Positions 3,001-6,000 of a DNA stretch of 64,000 nt are shown here, piece after piece (positions within the stretch are counted from its first letter, which is position 1; each line of letters begins with the position of its first letter). Location of the stretch: the NCBI RefSeq assembly GCF_016903815.1, contig NZ_CP069973.1; one strand, 5' to 3'. The stretch comes from Escherichia coli. GTDB lineage: Bacteria > Pseudomonadota > Gammaproteobacteria > Enterobacterales > Enterobacteriaceae. Made by a program: the position numbers.

Positions 3001-6000
3001 TCAGGAAAATATGGGACGTTTTATCAATCAGAGGAAATATGTTACAGTTCAGCTTTGTATCAAATGACGTTGTTATGACTTACGACGGTGACAGCGGAGA
3101 ACAAATAATTTGGGTTTGGGAGAGTTTAAATAAATTTCAAACAGTATGCATTTCACGCATTTTTAACTTTCAACTCCAGGACTTGAGAAACCCACCGTCA
3201 ACCGTTCAGGATTTTAATGATTATGAATATTCCTTTAATTTTGGCACGCTTAATAATGAATACATAACAGTTCCGGGACGGATTCTAAGCATTAATCGAG
3301 ATGTCCTTATACATAAGTCCATCAAGCTTGAAAGGAAAGTATTTGCGTCAGAACGCAACGTCTCCATTTTTGGTCGGCTTTCAAAACTACTCGATCACAC
3401 TAATCCCATCATCATCGGAGGAGATAAGTCGGAAGCTATACCAAAAAGCGTATTCCAGGAGTTGCAAAGTAAATTCCCCAACACAGGGGAACTGGATCGC
3501 TATGCTAATGCAAGGGTTCACGCTATTCTCGCAGGTTATCTTGATGGTATGAAAGATGCTCGCGAACGGTATGAACATTACCTAAACAGAAAAACAGTGA
3601 TCAGAAAAACCGACAAACTGGATTTAGAAGTTTTAAATAAGCTCGAAATTGAGAAATATACACTCATAAGAGACATTATCCAGGATGCGTTGAATAACAA
3701 AACTAACTTGTCTGAAGATGACTGGCAGAGCCTGATGATACCCTTCATCACATTACTTTTTCCAAAATATATCAAGGTCCTCGAGAAGGTTAAAATTTTC
3801 GACTATTACTCTAATCCTTCGGCTAAAACAAATCGGTTTATAGACATTGCACTGGTGGATGCAAACGGCAACCTTGATATCATCGAAGTCAAAAAGCCGT
3901 TTGATGATAAGATCCTTCGCAAGACGCCCTATCGCGACAACTATATTCCTACATCAGAACTTAGCGGCGGTATTATGCAGGCTGAAAAGTATATTTTTCA
4001 TTTATCTAAATGGGGTGTTAAGGGTGAAAAAGAGCTTACGAATGCCTACAAGAATTCTCTGCCAGCGGGAATGTGTATTCGTATATCTAACCCAAAAGCC
4101 ATCATCATTGTCGGGCGCGATCAGATAGCGAACGGTAACATGACCGACGGTCAGTTGCTTGATTTTGAGATAATCAAACGTAAGTACGCCAACATGATAG
4201 ACATATTGACGTACGACGACCTGTTGCGTCGACTTAATAATACGATTGAAGCATTGAAAGGTTGAATGTCCATGAGGTTCACACCCACAACGGGGAGCAG
4301 GTCACTTCCTATTGTTTGATTGACATACCATAACGTCTGCTTTTGGCTCAAAGCAGACTGTCTGATTTGATAGCTTTTGGGCTATGTAAATTGTCAGTTG
4401 AAAAATGAGTGAGTACAAATCAGGACGGGCGGGCGAGTTGCCCGCCTTTTCTTTAATCTGTTGTTTCATCCACTGACCAGCCAGGTCAAATAGCGTCTCA
4501 TGCTCTGCACAACAGAAAATAGTTGCACCCATTAACCACGGAGTTAAACGGATGAGCGACTATCATCATGGCGTGCAGGTGCTGGAGATTAACGACGGCA
4601 CCCGCGTCATTTCCACCGTATCCACGGCCATTGTCGGCATGGTCTGCACGGCCAGCGATGCGGATGCGGAAATCTTCCCCCTCAATAAACCGGTACTGAT
4701 TACCAATGTGCAGAGCGCAATTGCAAAGGCTGGTAAAAAAGGCACGCTGGCGGCATCGTTGCAGGCCATCGCCGACCAGTCAAAACCGGTCACCGTTGTC
4801 GTACGTGTGGAAGACGGCACCGGCGACGACGAGGAAACGAAACTCGCGCAGACCGTTTCCAATATCATCGGCACCACCGACGAAAACGGTCAGTACACCG
4901 GACTGAAAGCCCTGCTGGCGGCGGAGTCGGTAACCGGTGTTAAACCGCGTATTCTCGGCGTGCCGGGACTGGATACCAAAGAGGTGGCTGTTGCACTGGC
5001 ATCAGTCTGTCAGAAGCTGCGCGCTTTCGGGTATATCAGCGCATGGGGCTGTAAAACCATTTCCGAGGTGAAAGCCTACCGTCAGAATTTCAGCCAGCGT
5101 GAGCTGATGGTCATCTGGCCGGATTTCCTCGCATGGGATACGGTCACCAGTACCACCGCCACCGCGTATGCCACCGCCCGTGCGCTGGGGCTGCGCGCTA
5201 AAATCGACCAGGAGCAGGGCTGGCATAAAACGCTGTCCAATGTCGGGGTGAACGGTGTTACCGGCATCAGCGCCTCTGTATTCTGGGATTTGCAGGAGTC
5301 CGGTACTGATGCTGACCTGCTTAACGAGTCAGGCGTCACAACGCTGATTCGCCGTGACGGTTTCCGCTTCTGGGGTAACCGTACCTGCTCTGATGACCCG
5401 CTGTTCCTCTTTGAAAACTACACCCGCACCGCGCAGGTGATGGCCGACACGATGGCTGAGGCGCACATGTGGGCGGTGGACAAGCCCATCACCGCAACGC
5501 TGATTCGCGACATCGTTGACGGCATCAATGCCAAATTCCGTGAGCTGAAAACAAACGGCTATATCGTGGATGCGACCTGCTGGTTCAGCGAAGAATCCAA
5601 CGATGCGGAAACCCTCAAGGCCGGAAAACTGTATATCGACTACGACTATACACCGGTGCCTCCTCTTGAAAACCTGACCCTGCGCCAGCGTATTACCGAT
5701 AAATACCTGGCAAATCTGGTCACCTCGGTTAACAGCAATTAAGGAGCCTGACCGATGGCAATGCCGCGCAAACTCAAGTTAATGAACGTCTTTCTGAACG
5801 GCTACAGCTATCAGGGCGTCGCGAAGTCCGTCACGCTACCAAAACTGACCCGTAAGCTCGAAAACTATCGCGGTGCGGGGATGAACGGCAGCGCACCGGT
5901 AGACCTCGGCCTTGATGACGATGCGCTGTCAATGGAGTGGTCGCTCGGTGGCTTCCCGGATTCGGTTATCTGGGAGCTTTACGCCGCAACCGGTGTGGAT

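What the first reader, a model, noticed from the sequence alone, without database searches (positions are those of the whole stretch)
3039..3800. N-terminal ~250 residues of the cargo protein have no recognisable motif: possible sensor or autoinhibitory domain
No P-loop, HxH, zinc-finger or helix-turn-helix pattern is visible in aa 1-250, yet the region is large and sits before the putative nuclease core. In single-protein nuclease defences the variable N-terminal part typically controls activation. An unrecognised N-terminal module attached to a nuclease is where novelty is most likely.
Basis: inference. Interest (0 to 1): 0.55.

Follow-up and report, generated by a model that had tools for sequence, protein, structure and literature searches.

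The report
Known Shedu nuclease DNA-end sensor domain
The "unrecognised" N-terminal region belongs to E. coli SduA, the single-protein Shedu anti-phage nuclease, whose structure and mechanism are already published: this region is the clamp that senses free DNA ends and keeps the nuclease in check, so the finding is real but ordinary.

Summary
The ORF at window 3039-4265 (+, 408 aa) is E. coli Shedu nuclease SduA. It differs by one residue (S131 instead of P) from the protein solved as PDB 8PS4/8PS5 (full length) and 8PS6 (N-terminal domain). PADLOC SduA models cover it end to end (E = 1.4e-219), and RefSeq names the identical gene "Shedu immune nuclease family protein".

Residues 1-223 match no Pfam domain or simple motif, and they precede a PD-(D/E)xK core. 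Active-site residues E226 and Q230 therefore lie inside the "motif-less" span.

The sensor/autoinhibitor interpretation is correct but already demonstrated (Loeff et al., bioRxiv 2023; Cell 2025). The N-terminal domains form a clamp on dsDNA ends (W25, R106), and the nuclease nicks about 13-14 nt from the 5' end. The C-terminal domain alone is toxic, and T6 escapers map to uvsW.

My fold searches find only SduA among solved structures. In AFDB50 the 50 best of 54 significant matches are almost all Shedu proteins of about 400 aa. The P2 Z/fun hotspot location is also published.

Verdict: already known; low interest.

The parts
3039..4265 (+). sduA: single-gene type I Shedu anti-phage nuclease (EcSduA allele with S131), 408 aa plus stop codon
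   Evidence: ORF listing. PADLOC SduA PDLC04067, E=1.4e-219, aa 1-407. PDB 8PS4/8PS5 match aa 1-408 with one mismatch. RefSeq WP_023148825.1 'Shedu immune nuclease family protein' on DNA 100% identical to the window.
3039..3473 (+). N-terminal domain (aa 1-145), the DNA-end-sensing clamp; includes W25 (3111-3113), R106 (3354-3356) and the S131 polymorphism (3429-3431)
3474..3620 (+). alpha-helical linker (aa 146-194) carrying DNA-backbone contacts R154 and Y181
   Evidence: Paper. Helices are predicted at aa 153-167 and 172-188 with low pLDDT in the isolated model. Residues present.
3621..4262 (+). DUF4263 / SduA_C PD-(D/E)xK nuclease domain (aa 195-408); active site E226, Q230, D269, E283, K285, Q314
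   Evidence: Pfam PF14082, aa 224-396, E=7.5e-33. All published active-site residues are conserved. Mutagenesis is reported in the paper.
2903..2931 (+). putative own promoter of the cargo gene: -35 TTGGAT, 17-nt spacer, -10 TAATAT
   Evidence: Annotated as minus_35 and minus_10 signals in the 99%-identical GenBank record AJ512677.1 (P2-EC31 Z-region). The sequence was verified in the window. It is not picked up by the consensus scan because the -35 matches only 3 of 6 positions. It is unproven.
2721..2833 (.). left inverted repeat bordering the cargo module
   Evidence: Annotated in AJ512677.1 and mapped through alignment A2. An independent repeat search finds arm 2801-2832, 84% complementary to 4336-4367.
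4335..4425 (.). right inverted repeat bordering the cargo module; the DNA shared with other P2-like prophages starts here
   Evidence: AJ512677.1 annotation. Repeat arm 4336-4367. In about 900 other E. coli genomes the match begins at query position 1583-1598, which is window 4331-4346.
4427..4457 (+). terminator-like GC-rich hairpin followed by a T-run, downstream of sduA and upstream of the tail sheath gene
   Evidence: Consensus scan: 9-bp stem with 7 GC pairs, then TTTCTTT. This is a pattern match only.
2221..2748 (+). left flank: P2 G-like tail fibre assembly gene
   Evidence: phrog_136, E=5e-80. RefSeq annotation.
4552..5742 (+). right flank: P2 FI-like tail sheath gene
   Evidence: phrog_23, E=1e-158. 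RefSeq annotation.

Best explanation
The region encodes the N-terminal domain and linker of EcSduA, the single-protein type I Shedu defence nuclease. It also includes the first ~60 residues of the nuclease domain. The gene is carried as a moron in the Z/fun hotspot of a P2-like prophage, between tail-fibre-assembly gene G and tail-sheath gene FI.

Shown by published experiments on a protein that differs from this one at a single residue:
- SduA is a homotetramer whose DUF4263 domains form the body.
- Pairs of N-terminal domains form two narrow clamps that accept only a free dsDNA end. The end is partly unwound and stacked on W25.
- The duplex is then laid along basic patches (R106/K116, R154/Y181, Y256/K263) over the PD-(D/E)xK site (E226, D269, E283, K285).
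- The 5' strand is nicked about 13-14 nt from the end.
- Without the N-terminal domain the nuclease is toxic, so the domain both targets and restrains the enzyme.
- Defence is strong against T2 and T6, is not abortive, and is escaped by loss of the T6 UvsW helicase.

Inferred here: the window's S131 allele behaves the same way. In the lysogen the gene is probably expressed from its own weak sigma-70 promoter.
For: - Identity: the protein matches PDB 8PS4/8PS5 (full length) and 8PS6 (aa 1-188) with one substitution, E=5e-274.
- Family: PADLOC SduA models cover the full length and Pfam SduA_C covers aa 224-396.
- Functional residues: every published one is present, namely W25, R106, K116, R154, Y181, E226, Q230, Y256, K263, D269, E283, K285 and Q314.
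- Mechanism, truncation toxicity, mutagenesis and escape mutants: bioRxiv 10.1101/2023.08.10.552762. The work was published as Cell 2025;188:721, as cited in PMC12904381.
- Context: the gene lies between the tail fibre assembly and tail sheath genes of a P2-like prophage and has low GC, 0.40 against about 0.55 in the flanks.
- Earlier record: the sequence is 99% identical to the P2-EC31 'Z-region ORF1'.
- The paper itself notes Shedu in the P2 Z/fun hotspot.
- Position 131 is S, P or other residues among homologues, so it looks like a neutral polymorphism.
Against: Nothing found here contradicts it. Several points remain open:
- The S131 allele itself was not the one assayed; PDB, KTE10 and P2-EC31 carry P131.
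- Expression from the native promoter in a lysogen is not shown; the -35 matches only 3 of 6 positions.
- In the DNA-bound structure the scissile phosphate is about 12 A from the catalytic centre, so the activation step is not fully resolved even in the literature.
- How host DNA ends are spared is still debated (PMC12904381).
Confidence: 0.96

Rival explanations
1. The N-terminal region is a new, uncharacterised sensor module fused to a nuclease, with an unknown trigger.
For: No Pfam or NCBIfam model covers aa 1-223. The fold has no relative among solved structures other than SduA itself.
Against: The protein is EcSduA at 407 of 408 residues. Its N-terminal domain has a crystal structure (8PS6), a DNA-bound cryo-EM structure (8PS5) and a defined ligand, dsDNA ends. 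The same architecture recurs in the AFDB50 matches, which are almost all annotated as Shedu proteins.
Confidence: 0.01
2. The gene is a lysogenic-conversion or virulence moron unrelated to phage defence, as annotated in 2002 for P2-EC31 ORF1 ('putative lysogenic conversion protein').
For: The GenBank annotation of AJ512677.1. The gene sits in a prophage moron locus with its own promoter-like signals.
Against: That label predates the discovery of Shedu and was not based on an assay. The essentially identical protein gives a >30,000-fold reduction in plating of T2 and T6, dependent on the nuclease and on W25. Anti-phage defence is itself a form of lysogenic conversion, so the two labels are not exclusive.
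Confidence: 0.02
3. The N-terminal domain acts mainly as an allosteric autoinhibitor that is released by an infection signal to allow higher-order assembly. This is the mechanism proposed for Bacillus cereus Shedu, where a tetramer converts to an active octamer.
For: Gu et al. (bioRxiv 10.1101/2023.08.10.552793) show that removing the B. cereus N-terminal domain activates the enzyme and promotes octamers. EcSduA DUF4263 alone is also toxic. In the DNA-bound EcSduA structure the DNA backbone is about 12 A from the active site, so a further conformational step is needed.
Against: The B. cereus N-terminal domain has a different fold (sPC4/Whirly-like, type 1A). For EcSduA, direct end binding by the clamp, fixed-distance nicking and the W25A and R106A phenotypes are shown. 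No octamer has been reported for EcSduA. The two ideas are partly compatible.
Confidence: 0.1

Closest known systems
EcSduA, the type I Shedu nuclease of E. coli KTE10 (PDB 8PS4, 8PS5, 8PS6; Loeff, Walter, Rosalen and Jinek, bioRxiv 2023 / Cell 2025)
   Same: The sequence is identical at 407 of 408 residues. Length, domain order, DNA-contact residues and catalytic residues are the same. The genomic niche, the P2 Z/fun hotspot, is also the same.
   Different: Only S131 instead of P131. This position varies among homologues and is not among the residues reported as functional.
Bacteriophage P2-EC31 Z-region ORF1 (GenBank AJ512677.1, 'putative lysogenic conversion protein')
   Same: About 99% DNA identity across the whole cargo module, including the flanking inverted repeats and the annotated promoter.
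   Different: The old record lacks one T in a T-run, which truncates its ORF to 362 aa. This is probably a sequencing error. It carries P131.
Bacillus cereus Shedu (type 1A in Gu et al. 2023)
   Same: The same DUF4263 PD-(D/E)xK core, a homotetramer, non-abortive defence and an N-terminal domain that restrains the nuclease.
   Different: Its N-terminal domain is sPC4/Whirly-like rather than the EcSduA clamp fold, and activation is proposed to go through octamer formation. The sequence match to the window protein is confined to the nuclease domain: other PADLOC SduA models align only from about aa 185-280 onwards.
P2 fun(Z) and other cargo of the P2 Z/fun hotspot (second P2 defence hotspot of Vassallo et al. 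2022, PMC9519451)
   Same: The same insertion point between G and FI, and the same role as a prophage-borne defence moron.
   Different: The proteins are unrelated. Only 52 of the 957 complete E. coli genomes that share the conserved right flank carry this Shedu cargo.

Membership tests
Shedu (SduA, DUF4263) defence nucleases | DUF4263 / SduA_C (PF14082) domain | tested here: met
   Pfam PF14082, aa 224-396, E=7.5e-33. Sixteen PADLOC SduA models hit.
Shedu (SduA, DUF4263) defence nucleases | Intact PD-(D/E)xK active site (E226, D269, E283, K285, plus Q230 and Q314 in EcSduA numbering) | tested here: met
   All residues are present at the expected positions. Their roles come from mutagenesis in bioRxiv 10.1101/2023.08.10.552762.
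Shedu (SduA, DUF4263) defence nucleases | Single-gene system with no obligatory partner gene | tested here: met
   It is the only annotated gene between tail fibre assembly and tail sheath. The module is bounded by inverted repeats. The only other ORF is a 76-aa antisense ORF in the conserved flank.
Type I Shedu, EcSduA subfamily (end-sensing clamp N-terminal domain) | N-terminal domain with the EcSduA clamp fold, followed by a helical linker, ahead of DUF4263 | tested here: met
Type I Shedu, EcSduA subfamily (end-sensing clamp N-terminal domain) | End-stacking Trp25 and DNA-backbone patch residues (R106, K116, R154, Y181) | tested here: met
   All are present. In the homologue alignment, W25 is kept in most sequences that cover that position, and the ERNVSIF motif containing R106 is strongly conserved.
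Type I Shedu, EcSduA subfamily (end-sensing clamp N-terminal domain) | Homotetramer; dsDNA-end binding; nicking about 13-14 nt from the 5' end; anti-T2/T6 defence | not testable with these tools
   This is biochemistry and phage assays, shown for the P131 allele in the paper and inferred for the S131 allele from 99.75% identity.
P2 Z/fun hotspot cargo | Location between P2 genes G (tail fibre assembly) and FI (tail sheath), with variable content between conserved flanks | tested here: met
   Flanking genes identified. 957 genomes share the right flank but only 52 carry this cargo. There is a GC drop to about 0.39. The P2-EC31 Z-region record matches.

The most novel reading that the evidence does not exclude
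The most novel reading not excluded concerns compatibility between this Shedu and its own P2-like carrier. The prophage-borne S131 allele, expressed from its native promoter, may be tuned to spare the carrier phage. P2 replicates as rolling circles and packages from circular monomers (my own knowledge, not tested here), so it should expose few free dsDNA ends. The same enzyme would still attack competitors that rely on recombination-dependent replication. That compatibility would explain why an end-sensing nuclease lives in this hotspot. It would add a modest point to a known system and would not be a new kind of system.
Probability: 0.25. Interest if true: 0.25.

Novelty: already known. Interest (0 to 1): 0.05.

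Why it matters
It adds little to what is known. Structure, ligand, cleavage pattern, truncation phenotypes, escape mutants and the P2 Z/fun location have all been published for a protein that differs from this one by a single residue.

The value of this result is for triage and annotation:
- The locus can be labelled as Shedu (EcSduA type) and dropped from the list of candidates for new biology.
- The true domain boundary lies at aa 145/195, not at about 250.
- Pfam and NCBIfam still have no model for the EcSduA N-terminal clamp domain, which is why it looks "motif-less" to sequence-only inspection.

Tried and rejected
- NCBIfam scan of the protein: no family.
- Rfam gathering scan and tRNA scan of the whole window: nothing, so no RNA partner and no tRNA att site is evident.
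- Search with aa 1-195 for proteins in which the N-terminal domain stands alone or is fused to another effector. It returned 17 hits, mostly fragments. The most promising stand-alone candidate (P0004, 186 aa, on a 165-kb contig) ends about 90 bases from the end of its contig. The other short hits were not checked, and the short "uncharacterized" AFDB entries may likewise be fragments or split genes. I did not pursue this further, and I found no convincing example of a different architecture.
- Sigma-70 consensus scan: no + strand promoter upstream of sduA. The only promoter candidate is the one annotated in AJ512677.1, whose -35 matches 3 of 6 positions.
- I tried to place the protein in the N-domain classes of Gu et al. 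(types 1A-1X, NRF1/NRF2) through their supplementary table. No supplements are held, so its class in that scheme is not established here.
- Rousset et al. 2022 (PMC9122126) does not mention Shedu or this hotspot. The hotspot is named in Vassallo et al. 2022 and in Loeff et al..

Full report
**What is at the coordinates.** Window 3039-4265 (+) is a 408-codon ORF with an ATG start and a GAGG ribosome-binding site 6 nt upstream. The finding's span, 3039-3800, is exactly codons 1-254. The gene has about 0.40 GC in a neighbourhood of about 0.55. It lies between a tail-fibre gene (195-2219), a tail-fibre-assembly gene (2221-2748) and a tail-sheath gene (4552-5742). Tube, tape-measure and gpD-like genes follow. 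This is the late-gene order of a P2-like prophage, with a foreign insert at the position of P2 Z/fun.

**Checking the observation.** Pfam recognises only SduA_C (PF14082) at aa 224-396 and nothing upstream. NCBIfam recognises nothing. A regex scan of aa 1-254 shows no Walker A, HxH, CxxC or GxGxxG motif, and a single cysteine. The nuclease signature D269...E283-V-K285 lies downstream.

**Identification.**
- PADLOC's SduA model PDLC04067 matches aa 1-407 with E = 1.4e-219, and a second full-length SduA model gives 4.4e-171. Fourteen further SduA models match only the C-terminal half.
- Against the PDB, the protein aligns end to end with the "Shedu effector protein" of 8PS4 and 8PS5 (E = 5e-274), with one mismatch: S131 here, P in the PDB.
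- Residues 1-188 align with 8PS6, the crystal structure of the isolated N-terminal domain.
- In RefSeq, 52 of 5,426 complete E. coli genomes carry the whole 1.8-kb locus. At least 15 are 100% identical to the window, and the gene is annotated "Shedu immune nuclease family protein" (WP_023148825.1).
- In the phage collection the only hit is AJ512677.1, "Bacteriophage P2-EC31 proviral Z-region, ORF1", at about 99% identity.

**What is published about this protein.** Loeff, Walter, Rosalen and Jinek studied EcSduA from E. coli KTE10 (bioRxiv 10.1101/2023.08.10.552762; published as Cell 2025;188:721 according to the reference list of PMC12904381).
- The protein is a tetramer. The DUF4263 domains form the body, and the N-terminal domains pair into two clamps.
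- Expressing aa 1-145 or 1-188 is harmless. Expressing aa 195-408 or 146-408 is toxic.
- In the DNA-bound structure a dsDNA end sits in the 17-A clamp, partly unwound and capped by W25. W25A and R106A abolish defence.
- The duplex runs over basic patches to the PD-(D/E)xK site (E226, Q230, D269, E283, K285, Q314). The 5' strand is nicked about 13-14 nt from the end.
- Linear but not circular DNA is restricted in vivo. T6 escapers carry uvsW mutations. Defence is not abortive.
- The authors also note Shedu in the Z/fun hotspot of P2 prophages.

Every residue named above is present in the window protein.

I aligned aa 1-195 with 16 homologues and predicted the structure. Mean pLDDT was 79, with about 77-95 over aa 1-140 and low values in the isolated linker helices.
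- Foldseek against the PDB gives 8PS5, 8PS6 and 8PS4 at E = 7e-30 to 2e-26. Nothing else is below E = 1.
- Against AFDB50 there are 54 matches at E <= 0.001. Among the 50 best listed, nearly all are about 400-aa proteins annotated DUF4263 or Shedu. The named source organisms range across genera as different as Aeromonas, Arthrobacter, Paenibacillus, Pedobacter and the cyanobacterium Leptothoe. The few exceptions are short uncharacterised entries and one protein annotated as EF-hand.

The N-terminal fold is therefore specific to one widespread Shedu subfamily and always appears in the same architecture.

**Domain boundaries in window coordinates**.
- N-terminal domain: 3039-3473
- Linker: 3474-3620
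- DUF4263: 3621-4262

**The cargo module.**
- AJ512677.1 annotates a left inverted repeat (window 2721-2833) and a right inverted repeat (window 4335-4425). My repeat search independently finds 32-nt arms at 2801-2832 and 4336-4367 that are 84% complementary.
- The same record annotates -35/-10 signals. I verified them as TTGGAT, 17 nt, TAATAT at 2903-2931. The -35 is weak and the consensus scan does not report the site.
- A GC-rich hairpin with a T-run at 4427-4457 resembles a terminator.
- In about 900 other E. coli genomes only window ~4331-4551 is shared. The right inverted repeat therefore marks the edge of the variable region.
- Vassallo et al. 2022 describe this fun-containing locus as a second defence hotspot of P2-like phages (PMC9519451).

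**The single difference from the published protein.** Codon 131 is TCG (Ser) here and CCG (Pro) in P2-EC31 and in the PDB sequence. Among homologues this position is S, P and other residues, while the neighbouring G127, G128, I134 and P135 are invariant or nearly so. It is not among the residues reported as functional. I treat it as a neutral polymorphism. This is an inference and has not been tested.

**Alternatives considered.**
- A new sensor module: excluded by identity to EcSduA.
- A non-defence lysogenic-conversion factor, the 2002 label: superseded by direct defence assays.
- An allosteric octamer-activation mechanism, as in B. cereus Shedu (Gu et al.): not excluded as an additional step, because the DNA sits about 12 A from the catalytic centre in the metal-free complex. 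However, the B. cereus N-terminal domain has a different fold, and end-clamping is directly shown for EcSduA.

**Verdict.** Novelty: already known. Interest: very low.

Noticed in passing
window 4302-4532 (-): A 76-aa ORF on the opposite strand, between sduA and the tail sheath gene, matches phrog_11095 (unknown function) over its full length (E=2e-50). It is not annotated in RefSeq. It overlaps the right inverted repeat and the terminator-like hairpin, and it lies in the DNA conserved across about 900 P2-like prophages. It may be a spurious ORF call over conserved regulatory DNA upstream of FI, or a small real gene.
   Followed up: partly
window 195-2219 (+), especially after ~1250: In the tail-fibre gene, GC falls from about 0.54 to about 0.42-0.44 in the C-terminal half. 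Different PHROG tail-fibre families match the N- and C-terminal parts. This suggests a mosaic, exchanged receptor-binding region.
   Followed up: no
window 2864-2882 and 4293-4311: A 19-nt direct repeat, GGGAGCAGGTCA(T/C)T..CTA, 84% identical, lies on each side of sduA, inside the inverted repeats. It could be a recombination scar of cargo exchange or a chance match.
   Followed up: no
L003 (AJ512677.1) versus window ~3993-3997: The 2002 P2-EC31 record lacks one T in a T-run relative to the window. This explains why its ORF1 is annotated as 362 aa instead of 408. It is probably a sequencing error in the old record.
   Followed up: yes
window 6330-6605 and downstream to 6750 (+): A P2 E-like tail assembly gene is followed by a short overlapping gene that RefSeq annotates as a 'GpE family phage tail protein'. 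This is the arrangement expected for the programmed -1 frameshift pair E/E+E' of P2-like phages (my own knowledge). It was not examined.
   Followed up: no
window ~10854-13757: The prophage ends shortly after the gpD-like gene (9691-10854) and an ogrK-like gene. The chromosomal gene pflB follows on the minus strand at 11475-13757. The rest of the 64-kb window was not annotated here but looks like ordinary E. coli chromosome, with no tRNA genes and no Rfam matches.
   Followed up: partly
L001 2867-3910 (-), outside the window (upstream of the window start, in NZ_CP023820.1): The same prophage carries a 347-aa hypothetical protein on the opposite strand, between the virion-morphogenesis and baseplate V genes. 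It may be another moron in a P2 variable position. It was not examined.
   Followed up: no
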